Assembly: GCA_038128845.1 (NCBI GenBank)
Contig: JAYPKL010000001.1
Coordinates: forward strand, 42,338 to 106,337
Source of the DNA: Candidatus Woesearchaeota archaeon
GTDB taxonomy: Archaea; Nanobdellota; Nanobdellia; UBA10117; ARS21
DNA: 64,000 nt
Direction: 5' to 3'
Below, piece after piece: positions 30,621-62,399 of the stretch; positions within the stretch are counted from its first letter, which is position 1; each line of letters begins with the position of its first letter. The position numbers and the translations under genes are program-made. Under the pieces are notes generated by a model that had not been told where the DNA came from, did no database searches, and was given only the letters and a program-made list of their open reading frames with translations.

Positions 30621-33600
30621 ATAAATTCACCGAGTCCTTTTTGTTTAGTTAATTCTTTTCCAAATACAGAATCTATTCTTTTTTGTAATAAAACTATGGT
30701 TTCTCTCAAATAAGGCGATACTCCTTCTATTTTCATTAATTCGTGTGTAGCTTCAATATATTTTTTTATTGATCCTTCGCTTATTGTGTAAATTAATTTT
30801 GGATTTTTACATGAATTACATATTCCTGATAAAGGCATTCTTCGATATTTTTCGTTGCATTTTGGACATCTAAATTGTTGCATAGTAAATTTACGTAAAT
30901 TTCCTTTTGTATCTCTTATGAAGTGTCCGTTTACTATTAATTCTGCTAATTTTGGTAAACTAACTGCTCGGATTAATTTGGCCAATTCCACTTGTCCAGC
31001 CATTTTTTCTGTCATAGTGGGCAATGTTTTATATGCAGAAACTAAGACTCCTTCATTCAGATTTGAAACCGGATGTGTGAATAGATGATTTTCGTATTGA
31101 TCAATTGTATCCAGTGTGTCTTTTATTGTTCTTATATTTATATCCCATGGTTCTTTCATTGCTCTAGCACATTCATAAAATTCTAAAGGATATGAATCAA
31201 CAATATTGAGATCGTAAACTTCATCATCAACTTCCTTTGAATTCAAGATTGTTGTAATAACTAAAGGTGCATCCATTGAACGCGAACCTCTTTGATCCGG
31301 TAAAAAATCTCTTGAAAAATTTAAGAATGCATCTAACATGAGCATAATCGAAGTTTCTTCTCCGTCTAAATCTCTTCTCTGTGCGGCATGCCAATATGGA
31401 TGTGCAAGTAAAGCAGAAATTTTAGAAAATCCAATGATCCTTCCGGCAATACCTGCAGAAGTATGTGGCGCGAGTCCGATAATCATTCTGCCAATTAAAT
31501 CTTCTTTTACGGCAATATTATAGTATGCTTTTTGATTATAGAGTCTTGTTAATTCTTCATCAACAAAGTTTGCAGTTCGTAATAAAACTTCAGATCCTGA
31601 TTCAGATCCTAGTTGATCTCCGTCCGGTATTATGACATCTTGCGGAAATATTTCAATTAACTGATTGGCGTCTGTTATTGGGTTTCCTAAATAATCTGAT
31701 TCATAACCTAATTTTTTTAATTTTTTTAGAGTTAATCCTATCTCTATTGGTTTAAAATGAGTAACGCCAAGTTCAGTTCCATCATATCTTATTGTTCCGT
31801 CTTTATTAACTCTTAAAGAAAATTTAGCTCTCAATATGCCTTTAAGAGGGTGTTCTGCATATCTGTGTTTATTTAACGTTCTCTCAACACCTTTTATTAG
31901 TTGAGGTATTTCGTCATCCCATTCGGATATTGTTTTTTTATATAATTCAGATATTTGATATTTGCGTTTTTCAAATGCCCGGACGCGAATGTCTTTCGGA
32001 GGTTGATCGTATTTTATTTTTGTTTTTGGATCAACATATTTTTGTGAAGTATTAAACGAGTCGCAATTTTCACATTTTTTATATAACGACTGTTTATTAC
32101 AATCCAAACAATATAGTAAAGGAAAATCCGAATAAACGTATCCCTTCTTGACTACATCTACAAAATTGTTCATTCTACCTCCTTCCTTCCCTACTGGAAA
32201 TAAAAAATTTGGCGATCCTTTAAGATCTCTCATTTTTGCTTTCTCCGGTCTGCCCATTCTTGCGCCTATTGCTGTACCCCATAAATCTTCGATAGTATAT
32301 TCTGAAAAATCATTAATTAAATTCAAAGAATTTGTATAATTTTCTACATTTGCATCAGTTAGATTTTCATTTAGATTTAATTTTAATGTTTTTAGAATTT
32401 TTTCATCAAATTCAATCTCCGAATTTATATTTCTATGTTCGGCGCCAATTAATTCAATTGATCTTTTTATTGAATCAGTTAACTCCTTTTTTTTGTATAA
32501 GTATTTTGTTAAATCGACCACTTCTTTTGGTGAAATTTCATTCCAGTAAAATATTAATTCTGGATGTAAAGGAATATTGTAGTTTTTTGAAATATTTAAT
32601 AATAATTCATATTCTATTTTTTGTGGTAAAAATGAATCAAAAAAATTTGAATTTAAATTATTTTTTTGTATAAACTCGCTTTTGTTGTCTATTTTTGATT
32701 TTAATATATTGAACCACCATTCCGGACAAAATCCCGGTGGAGCAAGGAAATGATTATTTTCTAAAAATTCTCCTTGGGAAATTAAAATATCTCCCAAAAA
32801 TAAAATCTCAGATATTTCTTTAGTAATTTCGTTTGCTTCCGAAACTGTTTTTGGTTTTACAACAGAACCGTCTTTAAGTTTCAATATTGGTCCTTCGATT
32901 GAATCGCATGCAGTTAAGGATGTTGATTTTCCGGGTCTTTCGACTCTTAATTGAGTTCCTATTGCTAAGTAATCTTTACAAACTGCCATAGTTATCGGAG
33001 ATATTGCCCAAGAACCATGTCCTGTCAATCTAGATCTACCATAACGTAATCTAAATCCTCCTTTTCGCAGAGGGTGAGTAAATATTGGACGTCCCGCAAC
33101 TATTTCAGAGATATAAGAATAGTTTGGTTTTAATTTTGACTCGTCTTTTTTTGAATCAGATCTTGAGTGTATTTTTTTCTTTAATTCCAAGAATTCTTCC
33201 AGCCAATTCCAATCCGATAAATTAAAATCGGAGCCCCATTCCTTTATTTTTTTAAGTACTTTTGCACCTTTTAGAGGAATACAATCCGTTAATAATAATG
33301 CCATTCCGCCTCTTATTCTATCTGTCTCTATACGATCTAAGTTCTTGAAATTTGAAACAGATAATTTTGATGTTGGATCTCCGTTTAGTTCGACAGATAA
33401 GTTTGAAATGATAAATTTCATTTCTTCTTCGGTAGGCTTGTATTGTTTTCGCTCAACTCGATCATAATAATCGGTAACTTCCGTATAAAATCTTCTTATT
33501 TCGTCTTCCGAAGGATCGTATTTATCGATGTTATGTATTTTTCTAACGTAATCAGTTATTACTACTGTTACTGCAGATGCAGTTGCACCTCCCCCTCGAA

Positions 33601-34060
33601 TTGGACCTGCAAAATACATTGCTAAGTATTTTTTTCCATCTCTTCTTTTTTTAAAACGAATATCGATTAAACCCTCTAAGGGTGCTGAAACTGTGCCTTG
33701 CGTTATGTATGCAAATCCTGTTCTTATTCCAATATTTATTGCAGTTATTTGATCATCAAATTTGCAAAATTGTTCCGTAGATATTTCTTCCGCTAATTTT
33801 AGTGCAACTCTCCAATCTCCAAAACCAAATTCGGTTTCTAATTCGTTAATTCTTTTTGGGATTCCTTTTCCGATGATATTGGGAGATATTGATCCCATAA
33901 TTGCTTCAACTCTTTCTGAAACAGATGCTGCTATAGGAATATCTGATTCAAGTTGTGGATCTATTCCTGTTTTTTTAGCTAAGTTTGCAAGACTGTTGAG
34001 TTCGTGTGTTTTTTCATTCATAAAATTAAAATATTTTTGAATAGGTTGTGATGCAATCAT
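30617..34060 (-). CDS. DNA polymerase II (PolD) large subunit DP2
   Basis: 1147 aa with no intein. Assigned by length and architecture, C-terminal Zn-finger cysteines (CPKCN...CNSCK), and position next to orc1/cdc6 and DP1. Confidence 0.85.
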   Translation of the reverse strand: MIASQPIQKYFNFMNEKTHELNSLANLAKKTGIDPQLESDIPIAASVSERVEAIMGSISPNIIGKGIPKRINELETEFGFGDWRVALKLAEEISTEQFCKFDDQITAINIGIRTGFAYITQGTVSAPLEGLIDIRFKKRRDGKKYLAMYFAGPIRGGGATASAVTVVITDYVRKIHNIDKYDPSEDEIRRFYTEVTDYYDRVERKQYKPTEEEMKFIISNLSVELNGDPTSKLSVSNFKNLDRIETDRIRGGMALLLTDCIPLKGAKVLKKIKEWGSDFNLSDWNWLEEFLELKKKIHSRSDSKKDESKLKPNYSYISEIVAGRPIFTHPLRKGGFRLRYGRSRLTGHGSWAISPITMAVCKDYLAIGTQLRVERPGKSTSLTACDSIEGPILKLKDGSVVKPKTVSEANEITKEISEILFLGDILISQGEFLENNHFLAPPGFCPEWWFNILKSKIDNKSEFIQKNNLNSNFFDSFLPQKIEYELLLNISKNYNIPLHPELIFYWNEISPKEVVDLTKYLYKKKELTDSIKRSIELIGAEHRNINSEIEFDEKILKTLKLNLNENLTDANVENYTNSLNLINDFSEYTIEDLWGTAIGARMGRPEKAKMRDLKGSPNFLFPVGKEGGRMNNFVDVVKKGYVYSDFPLLYCLDCNKQSLYKKCENCDSFNTSQKYVDPKTKIKYDQPPKDIRVRAFEKRKYQISELYKKTISEWDDEIPQLIKGVERTLNKHRYAEHPLKGILRAKFSLRVNKDGTIRYDGTELGVTHFKPIEIGLTLKKLKKLGYESDYLGNPITDANQLIEIFPQDVIIPDGDQLGSESGSEVLLRTANFVDEELTRLYNQKAYYNIAVKEDLIGRMIIGLAPHTSAGIAGRIIGFSKISALLAHPYWHAAQRRDLDGEETSIMLMLDAFLNFSRDFLPDQRGSRSMDAPLVITTILNSKEVDDEVYDLNIVDSYPLEFYECARAMKEPWDINIRTIKDTLDTIDQYENHLFTHPVSNLNEGVLVSAYKTLPTMTEKMAGQVELAKLIRAVSLPKLAELIVNGHFIRDTKGNLRKFTMQQFRCPKCNEKYRRMPLSGICNSCKNPKLIYTISEGSIKKYIEATHELMKIEGVSPYLRETIVLLQKRIDSVFGKELTKQKGLGEFI

Positions 34061-34098
34061 ATTGGTATTTTTTTATCAGTAGTTTTTAAAAATCATTA

Positions 34099-34428
34099 TT
34101 GAAAAATATACATATGAGAGGTAGACCTACGTTTAGTCCAATAAGAAATAATTTAGTTGAATTAATTTATTTTATGGGTAGTTCATATGGCTATGATATA
34201 TATAAAAAGTATATTGAAATTTTTCCAAAAACAACTATGCGTTCAATTTATTATCATTTAAATAAAGGATCCAAATTAGGTGTATTTGTAGTTTCTAAAG
34301 TCGAAGAAGTAAAGGGCGATTATTCTTGGGGCATTGGCGTAAGAAGAGTAAATTTCAAATTAGGTCCTAATGCTCAACCTAAAAAAGATTTGATGATTTT
34401 GAAAAAATTAAAATCAATTAAAAAATAA
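34099..34428 (+). CDS. small hypothetical protein, possible winged-helix DNA-binding protein, abutting oriC
   Basis: 109 aa. Basic, with an HTH-like segment (GYDIYKKYIEIFPKTTMRSIYYHLNKG). The stop is 2 nt before the left ORB. Confidence 0.35.
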   Translation: MKNIHMRGRPTFSPIRNNLVELIYFMGSSYGYDIYKKYIEIFPKTTMRSIYYHLNKGSKLGVFVVSKVEEVKGDYSWGIGVRRVNFKLGPNAQPKKDLMILKKLKSIKK

Positions 34429-34430
34429 CT

Positions 34431-34456
34431 CTCACCCTTGCGTTTCTTGTGGAAAA
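34431..34456 (-). promoter_or_regulatory. ORB (origin recognition box), left, inverted orientation
   Basis: The minus strand reads TTTTCCACAAGAAACGCAAGGGTGAG. Confidence 0.5.
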
Positions 34457-34558
34457 TTATTTTATTTATTATAATTTTATAATAAAATATATTAATTAAT
34501 TACTATATTGAAAATAAATAAAATAAAAAATTTTTTTGATATATTATATACAATATAA

Positions 34559-34585
34559 TTCCATAAGAAACAAAAGGGTAGGGGG
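34559..34585 (+). promoter_or_regulatory. ORB, right, forward orientation
   Basis: TTCCATAAGAAACAAAAGGGTAGGGGG. Confidence 0.55.
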
Positions 34586-34645
34586 TTAAAAATTAAAAAA
34601 TTAAGTTTAATATCAAATTAATCAACTAAAATTTTATAAGGTACA

Positions 34646-34658
34646 TTTCCTATGGAAA
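34646..34658. promoter_or_regulatory. mini-ORB dyad TTTCC-TAT-GGAAA overlapping the orc1/cdc6 start codon
   Basis: Same 13-mer core as the ORB copies at 29.8 kb. The ATG at 34652 lies inside it. Confidence 0.45.
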
Positions 34659-35863
34659 TTATGGATTCAGATTTAGACAATTTATTTGATGAATATATTT
34701 CAAAAAAATCTATCTTTTCAAATAAAGAAGCATTGCTTTTACGTTATTTTCCAGAAAATATACCTCATCGATCCGAACAAATAAAAAAACTAGGTATGAT
34801 TTTAGCACCAGCATTAAAAAATAACAAACCATCAAATTTATTTATATATGGAAAAACTGGAACAGGTAAAACTCTGTGTACACAATTCACTATACAAAAA
34901 TTGTTAGAAAAAAGTAAATTAACTGGAGCCAAAATAAAGTATGCTTACTTAAATTGTAAATTAAAAAAAATTGCAGATACCGAATACAGAGTAATCGCCA
35001 GCTTAGCAAAAGAATTGGGCGAAGACGTTCCAGTTACGGGATTACCTACTGACGAAGTTTACAACATATTTATTAATAAAATAGATTCAGAAGATCAAAT
35101 TATTTTTCTTGTGTTGGATGAAATTGACAGATTAGTTAAAAAAAGCGGCGACGAAATACTTTACTCTTTGACTCGAATTAATTCGGAATTAAAAAAGTCA
35201 AAAATATGTTTAATTGGAATATCAAACGATGTTCGTTTTATTGAAGATGTTGATCCGCGGGTAAAAAGCTCTCTTGGTGAAGAAGAATTAATTTTTCCGC
35301 CTTATAATGCGCTGGAATTAAAAGACATCTTAAAAGAAAGAAGCGAAATTGCATTTTCAGAAGATTCTTTGGACTCAGCAGTTTTAGCAAAATGTGCCGC
35401 ATATGCTGCAAAAGAACACGGAGATGCAAGACGTGCACTAGATTTACTCAGAGTTGCAGGTGAAGTTGCAGAAAGAAGTAATGAAGAAATTGTAAAAATG
35501 GAACATATCAAAAAAGCAGAAGAAAAAATAGAAATTAATCGTATTTTTGAATTAGTTAAAACATTACCATCACAATCAAAATTAATTTTATATTCCATAT
35601 TTAATTTATCTGAAACAATAACAAAACTTGAAACGGGCGAAATTTATGAAGAATATAAGAACTTATGCAATATAAACAATAGTGCAATATTAACTCAACG
35701 AAGAATATCTGATTTAATCTCCGAGTTAGATATGCTCGGCCTAATAAATGCAAGATTAATCAGCAAAGGCAGACACGGAAGAACCAGAGAAATTTATTCA
35801 ACAATACCTTCAGATCTAAAAGAAATTTTAATGAAAGATTTAAAATCCGAACTAATGTTATGA
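34652..35863 (+). CDS. orc1/cdc6: Orc1/Cdc6 replication initiator (AAA+ plus winged helix)
   Basis: Walker A IYGKTGTGKT, Walker B LVLDEIDRL, sensor residues, and a C-terminal wH (LGLINARLISKGRHGRTREI). Confidence 0.9.
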   Translation: MEIMDSDLDNLFDEYISKKSIFSNKEALLLRYFPENIPHRSEQIKKLGMILAPALKNNKPSNLFIYGKTGTGKTLCTQFTIQKLLEKSKLTGAKIKYAYLNCKLKKIADTEYRVIASLAKELGEDVPVTGLPTDEVYNIFINKIDSEDQIIFLVLDEIDRLVKKSGDEILYSLTRINSELKKSKICLIGISNDVRFIEDVDPRVKSSLGEEELIFPPYNALELKDILKERSEIAFSEDSLDSAVLAKCAAYAAKEHGDARRALDLLRVAGEVAERSNEEIVKMEHIKKAEEKIEINRIFELVKTLPSQSKLILYSIFNLSETITKLETGEIYEEYKNLCNINNSAILTQRRISDLISELDMLGLINARLISKGRHGRTREIYSTIPSDLKEILMKDLKSELML

Positions 35864-37194
35864 ATTACAAAGATTTAATTAAAACTGCTCAAGAAAACAC
35901 AAAAAAAGAAGTTGTTATTGTAAAAAATAATATCGACGATTTAAAATCAAATCTAAAAGTAGTTAAAGAGTTTGACTATAAACCCAAAAAAGTAGAACCG
36001 TCCGATTTCACACAACACTTCAGAGAAAGATTTAAATTTTTAAGAAACACATTATTCAATCGACCGGAAGCTGCTTCAACAATTTCAATAAATCAAGCAA
36101 AAAAATCTTTTGAAAAAAACATTACAGTAATTGCAATGGTAAATGATGTAACGAGGCTTCCAACTGGAACAATGCTCGTATCTGTAGAAGATCTAACTGA
36201 TCAACTCGAAATAATTATTTCATCAAAAAACAAAGAACTAATAGAAAAATTACAATTTCTTACATTGGATGAAGTACTAATTTTCAAAGGCAACATAGTA
36301 AACGAAAAAATGTTTTTATCAGATATAATTTGGCCAGACGTTCCTGCCAAAAATCCAGAATATGCACCTGATGACGTTTATGCAGTTTTCTCAGGAGACA
36401 TTCATATAGGAAGTAAACAATTTTTACCAAAACAATTCGACACATTTATCGATTGGCTATCTGGAAAAATTGGAAACGAAAGACAAAAAGAAATTGCAAA
36501 AAAAACCAAATATTTCTATATTCCAGGAGATTTAGTTGACGGAATAGGTATATATCCAAATCAAGAAAAAGAGTTAGATATAAAAGATTTGAGAGGACAA
36601 TATGACGCTCTTGCAAGATATCTCGAAAAAGTTCCAGATGACAAACATATAATTATTTGTCCAGGTAATCATGATACTGCGGTCCGTTTAGAAGAACCAC
36701 AACCAAAAATGTACGAATACGCAGAAAAAATTTCAGAATTACCAAATGTAACTATGGTAACAAACCCGTCTTATACAAATATTCATTCATTTGATAATTA
36801 TTCGGGGCAAGATGTTCTAATGTATCACGGATATTCCTTTGATAATTTAATCGATCAAGTTGAAGGATTAAGATTATCCGGCGGTTATGAGTCTGCAGAT
36901 GAAATACATAAATTTTTACTTAAGCGGCGACATTTATCTCCTACTCACAATTTAAACTTAACTTTACCAATAAAAAAAGATCCAATGGTTATAGACAAAA
37001 TTCCCGATATAATGGTGACGGGACATATACACAAAGCAAAAATCGGATCATATAAATCAACCATATCTATTTCAGGAAGTTGTTGGCAATCTATTACGTC
37101 ATTCCAAGAAAAATTGGGACATAAACCGGATCCAGGGATGATACCAATTACCAATCTTAAAACAAGACAAAGCAAGATGTTATCTTTCAAATAA
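35860..37194 (+). CDS. DNA polymerase II (PolD) small subunit DP1 (Mre11-like phosphoesterase)
   Basis: Calcineurin-like motifs FSGDIHIGS, PGDLVD, CPGNHD and GHIH. N-terminal OB-like region. Overlaps orc1/cdc6 by 4 bp. Confidence 0.85.
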   Translation: MNYKDLIKTAQENTKKEVVIVKNNIDDLKSNLKVVKEFDYKPKKVEPSDFTQHFRERFKFLRNTLFNRPEAASTISINQAKKSFEKNITVIAMVNDVTRLPTGTMLVSVEDLTDQLEIIISSKNKELIEKLQFLTLDEVLIFKGNIVNEKMFLSDIIWPDVPAKNPEYAPDDVYAVFSGDIHIGSKQFLPKQFDTFIDWLSGKIGNERQKEIAKKTKYFYIPGDLVDGIGIYPNQEKELDIKDLRGQYDALARYLEKVPDDKHIIICPGNHDTAVRLEEPQPKMYEYAEKISELPNVTMVTNPSYTNIHSFDNYSGQDVLMYHGYSFDNLIDQVEGLRLSGGYESADEIHKFLLKRRHLSPTHNLNLTLPIKKDPMVIDKIPDIMVTGHIHKAKIGSYKSTISISGSCWQSITSFQEKLGHKPDPGMIPITNLKTRQSKMLSFK

Positions 37195-37223
37195 TTTTTT
37201 ATTTAATCAATAACTCCTTTAAA

Positions 37224-37976
37224 ATGATATTATTATTTTATTTAATTTTTTCAGTATTCATCCTACAATTTCTTGCAAAAATAATATCTTCAAATTATGA
37301 TTTAATTTCTTTATTTAACATATTGACTCAAAAAGAATTTTTTCTAATCTCAATATTATTAATTTATTTGCTTTATAGTACATTAACTAAAAAAAATATT
37401 TTTTCAAATTTATTTAAAATAACCATACTTTATGCTATTTTCATATTATTCTCAATTTTTTTCGACGAATTAATTTCAATAATTTTTTCGATTATTCTTA
37501 TTCGTCTGTATTACTTAAAGAAAAATTTAGTTTTACATAATTTTGTTATATTAATGGCATCATTAGGTGTCAGTCTTTTTTTCGGATCTACAATAAAACC
37601 AATGAATGCTTTGATTCTTGCCGGAATTTTTGCAATTTATGATTTTTATGCAGTATATAGATCAAAATTAATGGTAGATATGTTCAATAAATTTTCAAAA
37701 AACAATGCAATTTTTGCAATTATTTTAAGAAGTAAATTAAGACCAAATAATCAATTCATTATGGGTTCAGGAGATTTAATATTTCCAACATTAATTACAG
37801 TATCTTTCAATACATATTTACCGCATCTAACTAATGCGTCCATCTTAGGATCAATCCTGGGATATAGTTTTGTTTTTTATTTAATAAAAAATCAGAAATC
37901 TCATAATCCGGTTCCAGCACTACCACCAATATTATTTTGTATATTTACTTCATTGATTTTCAGACTCTTGTTCTAG
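37224..37976 (+). CDS. presenilin/signal-peptide-peptidase homolog (GxGD intramembrane aspartyl protease, A22 family)
   Basis: Polytopic 250-aa protein with the ordered triad of family motifs: YD (AIYDFYAV), GxGD (MGSGDLIFP) and PAL (PALPPILF). Confidence 0.65.
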   Translation: MILLFYLIFSVFILQFLAKIISSNYDLISLFNILTQKEFFLISILLIYLLYSTLTKKNIFSNLFKITILYAIFILFSIFFDELISIIFSIILIRLYYLKKNLVLHNFVILMASLGVSLFFGSTIKPMNALILAGIFAIYDFYAVYRSKLMVDMFNKFSKNNAIFAIILRSKLRPNNQFIMGSGDLIFPTLITVSFNTYLPHLTNASILGSILGYSFVFYLIKNQKSHNPVPALPPILFCIFTSLIFRLLF

Positions 37977-38597
37977 AACAGATTTTATTTTTTCGGCCTT
38001 CTTTTTACCAATTTTTTCAACATTCTGTAAATCCTTTTCTGAGGCATTAAATATATTTTTTGGAGTTTTAAATTCATCGAGTAAAGCATTTGCCAATTTT
38101 GGACCTACACCAGGCAGACCTTCGATCAAATATTTCTGTTCTTCTTCAAGCGTCCAGAATCTTTTACCAACTCTAAAAGACAAAATATCATTTTTTTCGC
38201 GATATTCTCTCCGCAATAAATTTTTCAATATAATCGAAGTAAATTCTATATCTTCGGAATATATGACAGATATTCCATAATCTAATTTGAGAGAAAGTAA
38301 TGCAGAAATTATTGCATTTTCAGAAATATCTCTAGACCAATATAACTCTGACGAATCACCTTCAACAATAATTAATACTTTATCAAAATTATCTTTCAAA
38401 TTTTTTGCCTGATTAAACAATCTACCGTCAATAAGAGAAGCCAGAAAATCTGAAATTGTTTTTCTTTCAACTATACATTTTTCGGATAACAGATAATCAC
38501 CTATATCTAATTTACAAAACTCATAATCTATTTTTAATTTATTTAAATCAAAACCTATTCCTGATTTTTTTTCACGATTATCTATAAATATTTTCAT
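37950..38597 (-). CDS. hef: Hef/XPF-type ERCC4 nuclease domain plus HhH2, encoded as a separate ORF
   Basis: ERK nuclease motif (VERKTISD), GDYLL, and a C-terminal (HhH)2 motif GLPGVGPKLANALL. The start overlaps the stop of the upstream helicase ORF by 4 bp. Confidence 0.7.
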   Translation of the reverse strand: MKIFIDNREKKSGIGFDLNKLKIDYEFCKLDIGDYLLSEKCIVERKTISDFLASLIDGRLFNQAKNLKDNFDKVLIIVEGDSSELYWSRDISENAIISALLSLKLDYGISVIYSEDIEFTSIILKNLLRREYREKNDILSFRVGKRFWTLEEEQKYLIEGLPGVGPKLANALLDEFKTPKNIFNASEKDLQNVEKIGKKKAEKIKSVLEQESENQ

Positions 38598-40015
38598 TTT
38601 TTCAACAAGTTATACATATTTTCTTCTTTCTTCTTTGAAACCCAATAGTATTTTTCATCAATTGAATCTTTTGTCATAAGCATATATACTTTACCGACGT
38701 TTACTCTTCCTATACGACCTCTTCTCTGTATACTACGCAAAGCAGAAGGAACACATTCAAAAAATATTCCTATGTCTGCATCATCTACATGAATTCCTTC
38801 TTCTGAAACACTGGTGGCAACTAAAATATCAAATTTACCTTCTTTAAATTCTTCTAAAATTTTTTTTTGATTTTTCTGAGTAAATCCTTTTCTCTGACCA
38901 GTGAATTTGGAAGCAGAATAATCTCCAGATTGATTTATCCGTGTCACCAATTCATCAACAGATTGAACATACTGACAAAAAATTATAATTTTTTTATTTT
39001 TTTCAATCAAATCAAAAACTTTGTTAATCTTAAAATTATCAGAAAGATTTGTAATTAGTTTTTTTATTCTAATCATTCGAAAATCCTCTAAAATACTTTT
39101 TGAAGATTTTGCACTTTCTTTTTCCAATTTATCTAATGCTTTGATAAACGAAGAATTGGTTTGAGTTTCCAACATTTCAAGCAAGTGTAGCAATTTTATT
39201 ACTTTTGTATTTGTCATAATAAATCGATAATATGAAGAGTCTTCTTTAACTTTACCAAAAAGAATTTTATTTAGTTTAATTAATTCTCCTTTGCTCAAGT
39301 ATTCAAATTTACGATAAACCAATCTATTTTTATGTAAAATATTATAACTTTCTCTCAACATATCGACAATCATTTTCTTAATCTCCAGATGAATTTTTGA
39401 AAGATTTAAAGATATAACTTCAATATCTCTTTTTGGTAAATATTCTAACATTTCTTCTTTATTTACTATATGAAAAATATCCAACTTCAGTAGATCTTTC
39501 AACTCATCCAATCTTTCTTTCTCTGTTGCAGGACTAGCACTCATTGCCAAAATTTGAGAATTGTTTATTTTGTTTGCAATTTTTGTATATGCATATTCGC
39601 CACTTGTTCGATGAGCTTCATCAAATATAACTAAAGAAAAATCATCAAAACTAAAAAAACCTCGTTCATAATCTGAAATTATTGTTTGAGGAGTACCAAT
39701 TATTATATCTGATTCAAACCAAATATTTTTCCTTATTTCGGGATTAATAGTACCATCAACAATATTAATCAATTCGGGATCATTAAAGAAAACGTCATAA
39801 CTTTTTTTATGTTGTTGAACTAACGGTTTGGTTGGAGCCATTAATAAAATTTTACCAGAATTTAATTTTATTCCGGAAAGCGCAATGGCAATAATTGTTT
39901 TACCTGCACCCGTTGGTAAAACTATAAATGAATTTTTTTCTATTATTTTTCCCAAAGTTTTTTCCTGATATGGACGTAATTTAATTTTATCTTTATTTAA
40001 TTTCAACATTTTCAA
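38594..40015 (-). CDS. hef: Hef-type SF2 helicase domain protein (XPF/FANCM-like helicase), separate ORF
   Basis: Motif I VLPTGAGKT, motif II FDEAHR, and a C-terminal helicase domain (QRRGRIGR). 473 aa. Confidence 0.75.
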   Translation of the reverse strand: MKMLKLNKDKIKLRPYQEKTLGKIIEKNSFIVLPTGAGKTIIAIALSGIKLNSGKILLMAPTKPLVQQHKKSYDVFFNDPELINIVDGTINPEIRKNIWFESDIIIGTPQTIISDYERGFFSFDDFSLVIFDEAHRTSGEYAYTKIANKINNSQILAMSASPATEKERLDELKDLLKLDIFHIVNKEEMLEYLPKRDIEVISLNLSKIHLEIKKMIVDMLRESYNILHKNRLVYRKFEYLSKGELIKLNKILFGKVKEDSSYYRFIMTNTKVIKLLHLLEMLETQTNSSFIKALDKLEKESAKSSKSILEDFRMIRIKKLITNLSDNFKINKVFDLIEKNKKIIIFCQYVQSVDELVTRINQSGDYSASKFTGQRKGFTQKNQKKILEEFKEGKFDILVATSVSEEGIHVDDADIGIFFECVPSALRSIQRRGRIGRVNVGKVYMLMTKDSIDEKYYWVSKKKEENMYNLLKK

Positions 40016-40658
40016 TAAATTTTTCTACCTTCTCTTTATGACCTGCACCAATTACAACAAGTATTTTTGAATCAGGAAATTTATTTTTTAATAACTTTAT
40101 TTGATTTTTCATATAATTGTCCCTATCTTTAACCAAACAAGAATAAATATTTGGAAAATCCGATTTAAATTCACTAATTAATTCTTTTATTTTCTTTTGA
40201 CTTGGAACTTTTTTAACATCAAATTGAGCTTTACTTGAATTTTTCTTAAAAGCAAAAGTAAATAATTTTAATTTCTCTTTTAATGGAACTTCTTTTGACA
40301 ATTTTCTTAATGTAATTCTTATATCTTGATCAATTAATGCAATTTTTGCACCAGATTTTTTACCAAAAATTATTGCAGATTTCATATCATTTCCTGCAGA
40401 AGATCCGGTTTTTTTACCAATTATTTTTTGACTTATTGAACCGAATAATAGAAACAGGAATCCAAAAAATCCAATCTCGTAAATTAATTTTAAATTTATT
40501 TTTCTCTTACGATTTTTATTAAATAAATTCTTGTATCTATTTATATCTAATTCTACTGCGACTATATCTGGTTTAAATTCAATTATTGCAGATTTAATTT
40601 CTTTTACGCTGTTTTTTGAAACATGACTTGTTCCAATTACTAAAAACTGATTATCCAT
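39993..40658 (-). CDS. TraB/PrgY/GumN-family protein
   Basis: N-terminal LVIGTSHVS and VAVELD motifs, a central hydrophobic segment, and C-terminal GAGH. Confidence 0.5.
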   Translation of the reverse strand: MDNQFLVIGTSHVSKNSVKEIKSAIIEFKPDIVAVELDINRYKNLFNKNRKRKINLKLIYEIGFFGFLFLLFGSISQKIIGKKTGSSAGNDMKSAIIFGKKSGAKIALIDQDIRITLRKLSKEVPLKEKLKLFTFAFKKNSSKAQFDVKKVPSQKKIKELISEFKSDFPNIYSCLVKDRDNYMKNQIKLLKNKFPDSKILVVIGAGHKEKVEKFIENVEIK

Positions 40659-40706
40659 ATAGTATTTTGTAGAAATGTTTATATTTAAAAAAACTATTTC
40701 ATTTGT

Positions 40707-40967
40707 ATGTTAATTACAAAAAATCTTAACAGCGTACACGGTATAGATGTTTATACAGATTCTGGCGAATATTTTGGTAAAATTGAAGAAGCAATTTTAC
40801 TTCACAATAAAATCGATTCATGGAAAGTAAGAGCAACCCCGAGATCATACTTATCAAAAGCAATGCCAACTGCAAAAGGAGTAATTTTACCACACCACCA
40901 TGTTAAGGCCATCGGTGATGTAATGCTTGTATCAAGATCCGCAGCACCAGCATTCATTGAAGATTAA
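40707..40967 (+). CDS. small PRC-barrel-like protein (paralog of 29089..29343)
   Basis: 86 aa, GIDVYTDSGEYFGKIEEAIL pattern. Confidence 0.35.
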   Translation: MLITKNLNSVHGIDVYTDSGEYFGKIEEAILLHNKIDSWKVRATPRSYLSKAMPTAKGVILPHHHVKAIGDVMLVSRSAAPAFIED

Positions 40968-41009
40968 GTCATTACGATTTATTTATAAAATTTTATTATA
41001 GTATTTTTT

Positions 41010-42818
41010 ATGAATTTTAAAGATACATCCGAAATAAATGTTCCTAAAAAAGTCATTGATAAAATAATAGGACAAGCTCATGCAGTTAAAATCATTAAAA
41101 AAGCTGCAAACCAAAGACGTCATGTTCTATTGATTGGATCTCCTGGAACCGGAAAATCCATGCTGGGTAAAGCGCTATCCCAATTATTACCAAAATCTGA
41201 ACTTGAAGACGTCATGGTATTAAATAACCATAAAGACGAGAATAATCCTATTGTTAAAACTTTGACCTCAGGAAGAGGTTCGGAGATATTACAAATTGCA
41301 AGACAAAATTCAATTAAAAATTTAAAAAAACAATCAATATTTTTCTTAATTTTTTCAATATTGGTTTTACTTTTTCCTTGGTGGATTAGATCAATTTACG
41401 GCGATGTAATGGCTGCAGCATCAATGGTGTCAGGAGTAATGTTTCTTGTTTTATACGGGGTTGCAATAAATATGTCATCAAGAAAAAAACAAAGTAATGA
41501 ACCAAAATTATTAATTGATACAAATTTAAAAAATTCTTCACCATATATTGATGCAACTGGATCTCATGCAGGATCTCTTTTAGGAGATGTTAGACATGAT
41601 CCTTTCCAATCGGGAGGTCTTGGAACTCCCGCTCATTTAAGAGTCGAACCAGGTATGATTCATCGAGCAAATAAAGGTGTTTTATTTATCGATGAAATTG
41701 CAACAATCGACATTCCAACTCAACAAGAACTTTTAACCGCAATGCAAGAAAAGAAATCTTCCATAACAGGAAAATCTGATAAATCTGCTGGCGCCATGGT
41801 AAGAACTCAACCAGTGCCTTGCGATTTTATATTGGTGGCGGCAGGAAATATGGATACAATCGAAAAAATGCACCCTGCTCTTCGATCAAGAATAAGAGGG
41901 TACGGTTATGAAGTATTTATGGATAAAGACATAGATGAAACAAAAGAAAATTTGGAACTATTTTATCAATTCATTGCACAGGAAATAAGAAAAGACGGAA
42001 AAATTCCACATATGACAAAAAAAGCATGTGACGAAGTTTTAAGAATTGCAAAAAAAATGTCTGGCAAAAAGAAGAAATTAACCCTTAGATTGAGAGAACT
42101 CGGCGGATTAATTCGGGCAGCAGGAGATTTGGCAATAGAAGAAAAATCAAAACTAATCGAGTTAAAACATGTAATTTCTGCAGAAAAAGATCCACGTACC
42201 CTTGAAAATCAAATTGCAAAAAAACATATCAAGAATGTAACAGACTATCAAATAATTAGAAATAACGGTTATGAAGTTGGAAGAGTAAATGGTCTTGCAG
42301 TTATCGGAGATTCCGGAATAGTTTTACCAATTGAAAGTGAACTTGCCCCGGGCGGAAAAAGAAAACAAATTATTGCAACAGGTAAACTTGGAACAATTGC
42401 AAAAGAAGCAATACACAATGTGTCTGCAATTATCTTGAAAAATTTTGGAAAAGACATTAACGAAAAATATGACGTTTTCGTGCAATTTATTCAAACTTAT
42501 GAAGGAGTAGAAGGAGATTCTGCATCTGTTTCAGTTGCAACTGCGATAATATCTGCTCTAACTAACAATCCTATTAATCAAAGTTTTGCAATGACTGGTA
42601 GTTTATCTGTCAGAGGAGAGGTACTTCCTGTGGGAGGAGTAACTAACAAGATTGAAGCTGCAATTTCAGCAGGAATATCGGATGTAATAGTTCCTTTTTC
42701 AAATAAAGACGATATCGTTTTAGATAAATCTCAAATTAAAAAAATAAATATTCACTATGCAAAAAATATAGAAGACGTATTAAACCTTGCACTAAAGAAA
42801 AAAATAAAATGGAAATAA
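41010..42818 (+). CDS. lonB: archaeal membrane-bound Lon protease (LonB)
   Basis: AAA+ Walker A GSPGTGKS, two TM helices inserted within the ATPase domain, and a C-terminal Ser-Lys protease domain ([11 protein letters not shown]...PVGGV). Confidence 0.85.
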
Positions 42819-42970
42819 ATATTGAAAATTCAAAGCTCGAAAGAATAAAATCTGTATTGAAAAATTCAGAATTTAACACAGTTGATGATTTTATAAATCA
42901 TTCAATTGAATTATTACTTTTTGCTGAAGAAAATAAAGATAAGTTTAAAGACTTAGTTAGCAACTCTTAA
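42809..42970 (+). CDS. small ORF (53 aa), possible ribbon-helix-helix/CopG-like protein, overlapping lonB 3' end
   Basis: Below the ORF-track size cutoff; translated by hand as [54 protein letters not shown] beta-strand-helix-helix pattern is plausible. Confidence 0.25.
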
Positions 42971-62295: not shown

Positions 62296-62399
62296 GGGCG
62301 TATAGCTTAGTCTGGTAGAGCGCTGGTCTTATAAGGCCACTTCCGAAATGGAAGATCTGAGTATACCAGAGGTCCCAGGTTCAAATCCTGGTTCGCCCA
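62296..62399 (+). tRNA. intron-containing tRNA with anticodon UAU (tRNA-Ile, AUA-reading); ~30-nt intron at canonical 37/38 position (about 62334..62363)
   Basis: Acceptor GGGCGTA/TTCGCCC (one U-U mismatch), D-arm GCTT...GAGC, anticodon stem CTGGT/ACCAG with loop CTTATA^(intron)T, T-arm CCAGG-TTCAAAT-CCTGG, discriminator A. The intron contains the hairpin CTTCC-GAAAT-GGAAG. Confidence 0.6.

What the first reader, a model, noticed from the sequence alone, without database searches (positions are those of the whole stretch)
37950..40015. Hef encoded as separate helicase and nuclease ORFs with a 4-bp overlap
Euryarchaeal Hef is normally one polypeptide (SF2 helicase plus ERCC4 nuclease plus HhH2). 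Here a 473-aa helicase ORF (PTGAGKT, DEAH) and a 215-aa nuclease ORF (ERK motif, HhH2) are adjacent on the minus strand. They are joined by an ATGA overlap and both halves are intact. This is either a genuine gene fission, as seen for several genes in nanoarchaea, or a sequencing frameshift. Either answer is informative.
Basis: partly seen in the sequence, partly recalled or inferred. Interest (0 to 1): 0.5.

Follow-up and report, generated by a model that had tools for sequence, protein, structure and literature searches.

The report
Hef repair enzyme split into two genes
In this marine DPANN (Woesearchaeota-type) archaeon the DNA-repair enzyme Hef is encoded as two overlapping genes, a helicase and a nuclease; the split is real and inherited by a whole clade, but separately encoded Hef halves were already known in other archaea, so it is a modest finding.

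Summary
On the minus strand a Hef-type SF2 helicase gene (most likely 40009..38594, 471 aa) and an ERCC4+HhH2 nuclease gene (38597..37950, 215 aa) overlap by ATGA.

It is not a sequencing frameshift. The same two-gene layout recurs in independent assemblies at 98%, 88%, 66% and 47% nuclease identity. Junctions differ: AAAAAATGA, AAAAGATGA, 11-nt and 17-nt overlaps, 1-nt spacers. Both halves are under purifying selection (dN/dS 0.04-0.10). The 12-member helicase clade containing the window is entirely split (bootstrap 100).

One extra A does give a 688-aa ORF, but 13 of 40 same-strand gene pairs in this window overlap by 4 bp.

Elsewhere Hef is usually fused (52 of 80 species-representative loci). 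It has split independently at least three times, usually just after a PIP-like motif in the linker. The window's subclade has lost linker and motif entirely.

Separately encoded Hef helicase and XPF nuclease are already reported for Thaumarchaeota, Aigarchaeota, some euryarchaeotes and Thermoplasma. This is a new member of a known kind, of low to moderate interest.

The parts
38594..40009 (-). Hef-type SF2 helicase gene, 471 aa. The ORF is open up to a TTG at 40015 (473 aa). It has motifs I, II, III and VI and the helical 'thumb' insertion. It ends ...KEENMYNLLKK* with no linker and no PIP motif.
   Evidence: aligns to Pfu Hef helicase domain 1WP9, residues 3-492 of 494, E 7e-85; conserved ATG start; motifs
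37950..38597 (-). ERCC4 nuclease plus HhH2 gene, 215 aa. It has an intact GDx(n)ERKx3D signature and starts directly at the first ERCC4 strand (MKIFIDNRE).
   Evidence: (A. pernix XPF 2BGW/2BHN, E 6e-37, full length; Pfu Hef nuclease 1J22-25; Pfu Hef HhH2 1X2I)
38594..38597 (-). ATGA stop/start overlap: nuclease ATG at 38597-38595, helicase TGA at 38596-38594. The nuclease frame is -1 relative to the helicase frame.
   Evidence: the same geometry is seen in 13 of 40 same-strand gene pairs in the window
38597..38602 (-). A6 run at the junction. One extra A would fuse the ORFs. The run is interrupted (AAAAGA) in the 66%-identity relatives, which are still split.
39896..39916 (-). Walker A / helicase motif I, PTGAGKT (aa 32-38 of the 471-aa protein)
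38448..38501 (-). ERCC4 active-site signature GDYLLSEKCIVERKTISD (nuclease aa 33-50)
   Evidence: G33, D34, E44, K46 and D50 are invariant and R45 is nearly invariant (>=90%) across 15 homologs
37974..38123 (-). HhH2 domain (nuclease aa ~159-208)
   Evidence: HHH_5 E 3e-13, HHH_2 E 1e-9; 1X2I
39993..40658 (-). Upstream TraB/PrgY-family gene. Its 3' end overlaps the helicase start by 17 nt. It is conserved directly upstream of the helicase in relatives and is probably in the same operon.

Best explanation
Hef here is a two-gene enzyme. A Hef/FANCM-type SF2 helicase and a Hef-type ERCC4-HhH2 nuclease are encoded by adjacent, co-oriented genes whose stop and start overlap (ATGA), so they are most likely co-transcribed and translationally coupled.

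The arrangement is inherited. It goes back to the ancestor of a well-supported clade of Woesearchaeota/Nanoarchaeota-labelled archaea. It most likely arose by fission of a fused Hef at the inter-domain linker, just after the PCNA-binding (PIP-like) motif. The window's marine subclade later deleted the remaining linker and the motif.

Inferred mechanism: the nuclease forms the usual ERCC4/HhH2 homodimer and cuts fork or 3'-flap DNA. The helicase remodels stalled forks. They cooperate on the same substrate without a covalent link, either by direct contact or simply by co-expression.

Shown: gene structure, conservation, purifying selection, intact catalytic motifs, and a break point on the structural domain boundary.
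Inferred: co-transcription, coupling, complex formation, the DNA substrates, and fission as the direction of change.
For: Split conserved in independent assemblies:
- 98% (L005), 88% (L006/7) and 66-67% nuclease identity (L001-4, L008, L012), all with ATGA.
- In L001-4 and L012 the junction is AAAAGATGA, so there is no homopolymer and no slippery site.
- Helicases at 50% identity with the same neighbourhood (LonB, 86-aa gene, TraB, helicase, nuclease, SPP, PolD-DP1, Cdc6) are split with 17-nt and 11-nt overlaps, a different frame relation.
- Relatives at 40-41% identity are split with 1-nt spacers.
- P0135 occurs in 58 collection blocks.

Both genes functional: dN/dS for helicase/nuclease is 0.044/0.099 (WIN vs L005) and 0.071/0.103 (WIN vs L006, dS ~0.5-0.6). 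The split persists beyond dS saturation.

Phylogeny:
- The 44 closest helicase homologs (99% to ~38% identity) are all helicase-only, 470-505 aa.
- The closest nuclease homologs are stand-alone proteins of ~214 aa.
- Bootstrapped NJ tree: the 12-member clade containing the window is all split or helicase-alone, with 100/100 support.

Break point: the helicase ends where the crystallised Pfu Hef helicase domain ends (1WP9) and the nuclease starts where the XPF/Hef nuclease structures start. Hef-profile positions 503-571 (the linker) are unmatched.

Deeper split relatives end with a PIP-like tail (QKRIIGF*, QRRLEEFG*, QRRIGDFG*, GQTKLSDI*) that aligns with the linker motif of fused forms.

4-bp overlaps are the commonest same-strand junction in this window, 13 of 40 pairs.

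Precedents for separable halves: taHef is helicase-only with a C-terminal PIP box (PMC4838364). Hef helicase and XPF domains are encoded separately in Thaumarchaeota, Aigarchaeota and some euryarchaeotes (PMC3082918).
Against: - There are no transcript, protein or interaction data. Co-transcription, coupling and complex formation are inferences.
- With midpoint rooting the split clade is sister to all other sampled Hef helicases, so this gene tree cannot settle fission versus an ancestral two-gene state.
- The window's proteins have no recognisable PIP motif at either terminus, so the PCNA tether that would naturally replace the covalent link is not evident here.
- One clade member (L096) has the helicase without an adjacent nuclease, which shows the two genes can function apart.
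- In the window itself G_AAA_AAA_TGA could allow a little -1 slippage, giving a minor fused product.
Confidence: 0.85

Rival explanations
1. Sequencing or assembly frameshift: the organism really has one fused ~688-aa Hef gene, and one A was lost from a homopolymer at 38597..38602.
For: Adding a single A to the A6 run gives a continuous 688-aa ORF. The window comes from a low-GC (~29%) genome rich in A/T runs.
Against: - The same split occurs in at least 10 independently assembled contigs from different projects.
- The 66%-identity relatives have AAAAGATGA with no homopolymer.
- More distant clade members have 11-nt and 17-nt overlaps or 1-nt spacers, which need a different frame correction.
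- The nuclease frame is open for only 4 codons upstream of its ATG.
- No linker is present. Every fused form in the survey (52 of 80 loci) has at least 21 aa between the domains.
- 4-bp overlaps are the norm in this window.
Confidence: 0.02
2. Programmed -1 ribosomal frameshifting or transcriptional slippage on the A-run produces a fused full-length Hef as a conserved, functional product alongside the separate proteins.
For: A -1 shift at AAA_AAA just before the TGA would read straight into the nuclease ATG. L006-L008 have a perfect A_AAA_AAA heptamer.
Against: - The heptamer is imperfect in the window (G_AAA_AAA).
- It is destroyed in L001-4 and L012 (AAA_AGA).
- It is irrelevant in L092-95, L097 and L098, where the frame relation differs.
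- So no slippery site is conserved across the clade. No downstream stimulatory structure was sought.
Confidence: 0.04
3. Ancestral two-gene state: the helicase and nuclease were never fused in this lineage. Fused Hef arose by gene fusion elsewhere, and the window preserves the primitive operon.
For: In the midpoint-rooted helicase tree the split clade is sister to all other sampled sequences. Separate helicase and nuclease genes also occur in Thaumarchaeota and Aigarchaeota (PMC3082918).
Against: - Records labelled with the same phylum (Woesearchaeota, Nanoarchaeota) include many fused forms (L028, L033, L038, L051, L071, L077 and others).
- Fused forms dominate in Thermococcus-, Altiarchaeota-, Iainarchaeota-, Undinarchaeota- and Promethearchaeota-labelled records.
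- Deeper split relatives carry, as their helicase C-terminal tail, the same PIP-like motif that sits inside the linker of fused forms. That is what a break inside a pre-existing linker predicts.
- Midpoint rooting of fast-evolving DPANN sequences is unreliable.
Confidence: 0.12
4. The two genes are functionally independent: a FANCM/taHef-like fork helicase and a crenarchaeal-style stand-alone XPF flap nuclease. They are neighbours by descent only and do not cooperate.
For: - L096 has the helicase without a neighbouring nuclease.
- Micrarchaeota-labelled loci have the nuclease without a neighbouring helicase.
- Helicase-only taHef and short XPF are known to work alone (PMC4838364; PMC2836553).
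- No PIP or linker remains in the window.
Against: - Adjacency, order and stop/start overlap or near-abutment are retained from 99% down to ~40% helicase identity.
- The two genes diverge in parallel (helicase/nuclease identity 72/66% and 51/47%) with similar dN/dS.
- The nuclease scores higher on the Hef model (225 bits) than on the archaeal Xpf model (134 bits, below its 300-bit cutoff).
Confidence: 0.2

Closest known systems
Hef of Pyrococcus furiosus / Thermococcus kodakarensis (fused helicase-linker-nuclease; NCBIfam NF010337)
   Same: Same helicase core with the thumb insertion (1WP9, E 7e-85). Same ERCC4 active-site signature and HhH2 (1J22-25, 1X2I). Both halves hit the Hef model best.
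   Different: Two polypeptides instead of one. The ~70-80-aa linker, described as intrinsically disordered in the title of Ishino et al. 2014 (reference 27 of PMC4838364), is completely absent. Neither half alone reaches the 610-bit family cutoff.
[quoted passage not shown] Caldiarchaeum subterraneum' and a minority of euryarchaeotes (Nunoura et al. 2011, PMC3082918)
   Same: Hef helicase and XPF nuclease domains sit on different genes.
   Different: [quoted passage not shown] Here they remain adjacent, in the ancestral order, with overlapping stop and start codons. The lineage here is DPANN.
Thermoplasma acidophilum Hef (taHef), helicase-only (Rohleder et al. 2016, PMC4838364)
   Same: A Hef-family helicase without a nuclease domain. 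Deeper relatives of the window's helicase also end in a C-terminal PIP-like motif, as taHef does.
   Different: The window's helicase has lost the PIP motif and has a Hef-type nuclease gene immediately downstream.
Crenarchaeal short-form XPF (Sulfolobus, Aeropyrum; NCBIfam NF040956)
   Same: A ~215-aa ERCC4+HhH2 protein. The best solved-structure match is A. pernix XPF over the full length.
   Different: It scores 134 bits against a 300-bit cutoff and lower than against the Hef model. It has no C-terminal PIP peptide, which S. solfataricus XPF needs for activity (PMC2836553). It has a cognate helicase gene upstream.
Split protein genes of Nanoarchaeota
   Same: A domain-boundary split of an otherwise single protein in a small-genome DPANN archaeon (the multiple split genes of N. 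equitans are noted in the PMC3655853 abstract).
   Different: From my own knowledge, not tested here, the N. equitans halves are typically dispersed. Here the halves are adjacent and overlapping. I did not check whether N. equitans itself has Hef.

Membership tests
Hef (NCBIfam NF010337 / PRK13766) | SF2 helicase core with motifs I, II, III and VI | tested here: met
   PTGAGKT, DEAH, SAS and QRRGRIGR; Pfam DEAD, ResIII and Helicase_C
Hef (NCBIfam NF010337 / PRK13766) | Helical 'thumb' insertion domain between the two RecA lobes | tested here: met
   PF21210, E 4e-10, aa 218-315; continuous alignment to 1WP9
Hef (NCBIfam NF010337 / PRK13766) | ERCC4 nuclease with GDx(n)ERKx3D, plus a C-terminal HhH2 | tested here: met
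   PF02732 E 1.5e-31 and HHH_5 E 3e-13; signature intact
Hef (NCBIfam NF010337 / PRK13766) | Helicase and nuclease on one polypeptide that reaches the family cutoff (610 bits) | tested here: not met
   Two ORFs. The halves score 417.8 and 225.1 bits separately. The split is conserved in relatives.
Hef (NCBIfam NF010337 / PRK13766) | Inter-domain linker carrying a PCNA-interacting motif | tested here: not met
   Profile positions 503-571 unmatched. The helicase ends at ...NLLKK* and the nuclease starts at the first ERCC4 strand. No terminal Qxx[LIVM]xx[FYW] motif.
Short-form archaeal XPF (NCBIfam NF040956) | Stand-alone ERCC4+HhH2 protein that reaches the family cutoff (300 bits) | tested here: not met
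   134.4 bits, below the cutoff and below the 225 bits on the Hef model
Short-form archaeal XPF (NCBIfam NF040956) | C-terminal PCNA-interacting peptide | tested here: not met
   The C-terminus ...KSVLEQESENQ* has no PIP-like motif, and relatives likewise. The requirement in S. solfataricus comes from PMC2836553.
Helicase-only Hef (taHef type) | Hef helicase core without a nuclease domain on the same chain | tested here: met
Helicase-only Hef (taHef type) | C-terminal PIP box binding PCNA | tested here: not met
   Absent from the window and from L001-8, L012 and L092-96. Present in L067, L090, L091, L097 and L098. PCNA binding itself cannot be tested here.
Programmed -1 frameshift gene | Slippery heptamer at the overlap, conserved among relatives | tested here: not met
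   G_AAA_AAA in the window, A_AAA_AAA in L006-8, AAA_AGA in L001-4 and L012, and different geometry in L092-98
Functional two-subunit Hef complex | Physical association or functional cooperation of the two gene products | not testable with these tools
   Indirect evidence only: conserved adjacency and order, and parallel divergence

The most novel reading that the evidence does not exclude
Hef has broken apart repeatedly and independently. The survey found at least three well-supported events: the window's Woesearchaeota/Nanoarchaeota clade, Hadarchaeota, and an Iainarchaeota subclade.

The break almost always falls immediately after the PIP-like motif in the linker, leaving the helicase with a C-terminal PCNA hook. 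This would mean PCNA, not the covalent linker, is what holds the two activities together at a fork.

The window's subclade, with its tail lost, and L096, with its nuclease gone from the neighbourhood, would then be later steps on a path from fused Hef to helicase-only Hef and stand-alone XPF.
Probability: 0.35. Interest if true: 0.45.

Novelty: new member of a known kind. Interest (0 to 1): 0.25.

Why it matters
For annotation, the two genes should be named as the helicase and nuclease subunits of Hef. They should not be flagged as a frameshifted pseudogene, and automated frameshift detectors that merge adjacent ORFs hitting one target would mis-correct them.

For biology, this clade is a natural experiment. 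It shows that Hef's helicase and nuclease can work without a covalent link and, in this subclade, without the linker region that in fused and deeper split relatives carries the PIP-like motif.

The wider pattern of recurrent breaks just after the PIP-like motif gives a testable idea about how the XPF/MUS81/FANCM family diversified into helicase-only and nuclease-only members. None of this overturns current understanding.

Tried and rejected
- The first genome scan, with a 15-sequence nuclease alignment, failed because no stretch was conserved enough. It worked with 6 sequences.
- The first bootstrap script timed out. I redid it with vectorised Kimura distances.
- Sequencing error was rejected on the comparative evidence.
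- A conserved programmed -1 frameshift was rejected because the slippery site is not conserved.
- Stop-codon readthrough or recoding was considered for the in-frame-stop splits (L009, Hadarchaeota). It is unlikely, because the stop codon varies (TAA or TAG) and sister loci have other geometries. This was not pursued, as it does not concern the window.
- A search for a compensating C-terminal PIP motif on the split nucleases found none.
- Literature searches for a described split Hef in DPANN, Nanoarchaeota or Hadarchaeota found nothing. They did find the Thaumarchaeota/Aigarchaeota statement and taHef.
- A search for origin-recognition-box-like repeats upstream of cdc6 (33000-36000) found nothing convincing.
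- I did not predict structures. The tool folds single chains, so it cannot test a helicase-nuclease interface.
Full report
**1. Observation**

The ORF list and the sequence confirm two co-oriented minus-strand ORFs: 38594..40015 (473 aa from a TTG start) and 37950..38597 (215 aa). The minus-strand junction reads TTGTTGAAAAAATGAAAATA. The nuclease ATG (38597-38595) and the helicase TGA (38596-38594) share ATGA.

Pfam finds DEAD, ResIII, Helicase_C and the helical insertion domain PF21210 in the first ORF. It finds ERCC4 plus HHH_5/HHH_2 in the second. The NCBIfam Hef model NF010337 (781 positions) is the best hit for both halves. The helicase covers positions 8-502 (417.8 bits) and the nuclease covers 572-778 (225.1 bits). 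About 70 linker positions are unmatched.

Catalytic motifs are intact: PTGAGKT, DEAH, SAS, QRRGRIGR and GDYLLSEKCIVERKTISD.

There is one correction on coordinates. The conserved start is the ATG at 40009, giving 471 aa, because L001 and L008 have a stop codon two codons upstream of it.

**2.

Adding one A to the A6 run gives a 688-aa ORF. Any ATGA overlap can be "repaired" in this way. In a greedy gene model of this 92%-coding window, 13 of 40 same-strand adjacent pairs overlap by exactly 4 bp. The overlap is therefore the default operon junction here and not a sign of error.

**3. Comparative evidence for a genuine split**

Close nuclease homologs are all stand-alone proteins of 214-215 aa. 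Their contigs come from TARA, ENA, JGI, NCBI and Logan. They show a helicase of 471 aa followed by the nuclease, with a 4-bp overlap, at 98% (L005), 88% (L006/7) and 66-67% identity (L001-4, L008, L012). The neighbourhood is the same throughout: LonB, an 86-aa gene, TraB, helicase, nuclease, SPP, PolD-DP1 and Cdc6.

In L001-4 and L012 the junction is AAAAGATGA, so neither a homopolymer nor a slippery site is present.

Helicases at 50% identity in the same neighbourhood are split with 17-nt (L092/93) and 11-nt (L094/95) overlaps, which is a different frame relation. One of these proteins is indexed in 58 blocks of the collection.

At 40-41% identity, L097 (same neighbourhood) and L098 are split with 1-nt spacers.

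Both genes are under purifying selection. dN/dS is 0.044 and 0.099 (window vs L005) and 0.071 and 0.103 (window vs L006, dS about 0.5-0.6). The split persists beyond synonymous saturation.

A sequencing frameshift is therefore rejected, and a conserved programmed frameshift is not supported.

**4. Where the break lies**

The helicase aligns to the crystallised P. furiosus Hef helicase domain (1WP9) over residues 3-492 of 494. The nuclease aligns over its full length to A. pernix XPF (2BGW/2BHN), and to the Pfu Hef nuclease (1J22-25) and HhH2 (1X2I) constructs. The break is therefore on the structural domain boundary.

I aligned junction regions from 90+ loci. Fused forms have a linker of 21-39 aa in most of the loci sampled and about 80 aa in the Thermococcus-labelled loci. 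The linker carries a PIP-like Qxx[LI]xx[FYW] motif.

Most split helicases end just after that motif:
- QKKLIGFGE* (L009)
- QTTLGGWGE* (L015)
- QKSLEDFGED* (L025, Hadarchaeota-labelled)
- QRRLEEFG* (L090)
- QKRIIGF* (L098)

The window's subclade (window, L001-8, L012, L092-95) ends earlier, at ...KEENMYNLLKK*, and its nuclease begins at the first ERCC4 strand. Linker and motif are gone. Neither window protein has a terminal PIP motif.

L097 shares the window's neighbourhood but keeps the tail (GQTKLSDI*). This suggests the order of events was fission first, then loss of the tail.

**5. Distribution**

A scan of one genome per GTDB species with a nuclease alignment returned the best 80 of 473 confirmed loci. 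My classifier found:

| Class | Loci |
|---|---|
| Fused | 52 |
| Split | 17 |
| Nuclease without a helicase in the flank | 11 |

The nuclease-only loci are mostly Micrarchaeota-labelled. One of them, L023, is too close to a contig end to judge.

Fused forms include many records labelled Woesearchaeota, Nanoarchaeota, Iainarchaeum and Undinarchaeota. The split is therefore not a general DPANN trait.

In the protein search with the helicase, the 44 nearest clusters are all helicase-only. Fused proteins of 730-805 aa (Thermococcus, Altiarchaeota, Promethearchaeota) appear beyond about 38% identity.

A bootstrapped NJ tree of 70 helicase domains gave these supports:

| Grouping | Bootstrap |
|---|---|
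| 12-member clade with the window, all split or helicase-alone | 100/100 |
| Hadarchaeota split clade | 100/100 |
| Iainarchaeota split trio | 100/100 |
| All split forms monophyletic | 0/100 |

There were therefore at least three independent events, plus singletons (L009, L040, L073, L074) that could include assembly errors.

The tree is NJ and midpoint-rooted, and the window's clade falls as sister to everything else. The direction of change for this clade, fission or an ancestral two-gene state, is therefore inferred from other evidence. Fused forms occur in records labelled with the same phylum, and the tail of deeper split helicases matches the linker motif of fused forms.

**6. Mechanism**

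Shown: two intact, conserved, selected genes in the ancestral order with overlapping stop and start codons.

Inferred:
- The genes are co-transcribed, possibly together with the upstream TraB-family gene that overlaps the helicase start by 17 nt.
- Translation is coupled.
- The nuclease forms a homodimer acting on forks or 3' flaps.
- The helicase remodels forks.
- The two cooperate without a covalent link.

Published precedents make separable function plausible. taHef is a helicase-only Hef that binds PCNA through a C-terminal PIP box (PMC4838364). Crenarchaeal XPF works as a stand-alone nuclease with PCNA (PMC2836553).

L096, which has the helicase without a neighbouring nuclease, shows that the pair can come apart.

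**7. Comparison with what is known, and novelty**

The proteins are Hef-family by every domain-level feature. They fail the single-polypeptide and linker features.

Separately encoded Hef helicase (COG1111) and XPF nuclease domains have already been noted for 'Ca. [quoted passage not shown]

I found no paper describing the adjacent, overlapping two-gene form in DPANN or Hadarchaeota, or the recurrent break after the PIP-like motif. The library is limited to open-access full text.

Verdict: a real feature, correctly spotted, and a new member of a known kind. Interest is low to moderate, at 0.25. The more interesting reading is recurrent fission at the PIP motif with PCNA as the surrogate tether. 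I give that 0.35 probability, and an interest of 0.45 if true.

Noticed in passing
window 62296-62399 (+): Rfam calls a tRNA here (61.1 bits) that spans 104 nt, but ARAGORN does not report it. It is probably an intron-containing archaeal tRNA.
   Followed up: no
window 34429-34651, with cdc6 at 34652-35863 (+) and PolD small subunit at 35860-37194 (+): An AT-rich 220-nt intergenic region lies upstream of an Orc1/Cdc6 gene that overlaps PolD-DP1 by 4 bp. Cumulative GC skew peaks nearby, at about 28-30 kb. This is a possible replication origin, but no clear ORB-like repeats were found.
   Followed up: partly
window ~34650-42820; L001, L005, L008, L092, L094, L097: The gene block LonB / 86-aa gene / TraB-family / Hef helicase / Hef nuclease / SPP-type presenilin protease / PolD-DP1 / Cdc6 is conserved in order and orientation. 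It holds down to ~41% helicase identity through DP1 (where the L097 flank ends) and down to ~50% through Cdc6.
   Followed up: partly
window 37950-37976: The convergent SPP-family membrane protease gene (37224..37976, +) overlaps the 3' end of the nuclease gene by 27 nt. A similar convergent overlap of 18-27 nt appears in relatives (L001, L005, L092), while L094 and L097 overlap by only 4 nt.
   Followed up: no
L025, L029, L063, L064 (Hadarchaeota-labelled MAGs), also L009-L011: Here Hef is split by a single in-frame stop codon (TAA or TAG) followed directly by the start codon (ATG, or TTG in L064) of the nuclease, with the helicase ending just after a PIP-like motif. This is a different split geometry from the window, conserved across a 100%-bootstrap clade.
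   Followed up: partly
L096 (JGI 3300033143, Ga0366829_1000545): A member of the window's helicase clade has the helicase (483 aa, no PIP tail) followed by an opposite-strand acetyltransferase gene, with no nuclease nearby. The pair has dispersed, or the nuclease has been lost.
   Followed up: no
L023, L027, L034, L046, L076, L080, L081, L085 (Micrarchaeota-labelled), L060, L068, L086: These loci have a Hef-like ERCC4+HhH2 nuclease with no Hef helicase within the fetched flanks. L060 is labelled as a bacterium (Acidoferrum), which suggests a mis-binned contig or a transfer.
   Followed up: no
L006, L007, L008 junctions: These relatives have a perfect A_AAA_AAA -1 slippery heptamer immediately before the helicase stop codon. 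A -1 slip there would read into the nuclease ATG. It is not conserved in the clade, so it is probably incidental.
   Followed up: partly
whole window: The genome is very compact: about 92% coding and about 29% GC. One third of same-strand neighbouring gene pairs (13 of 40) overlap by exactly 4 bp.
   Followed up: yes
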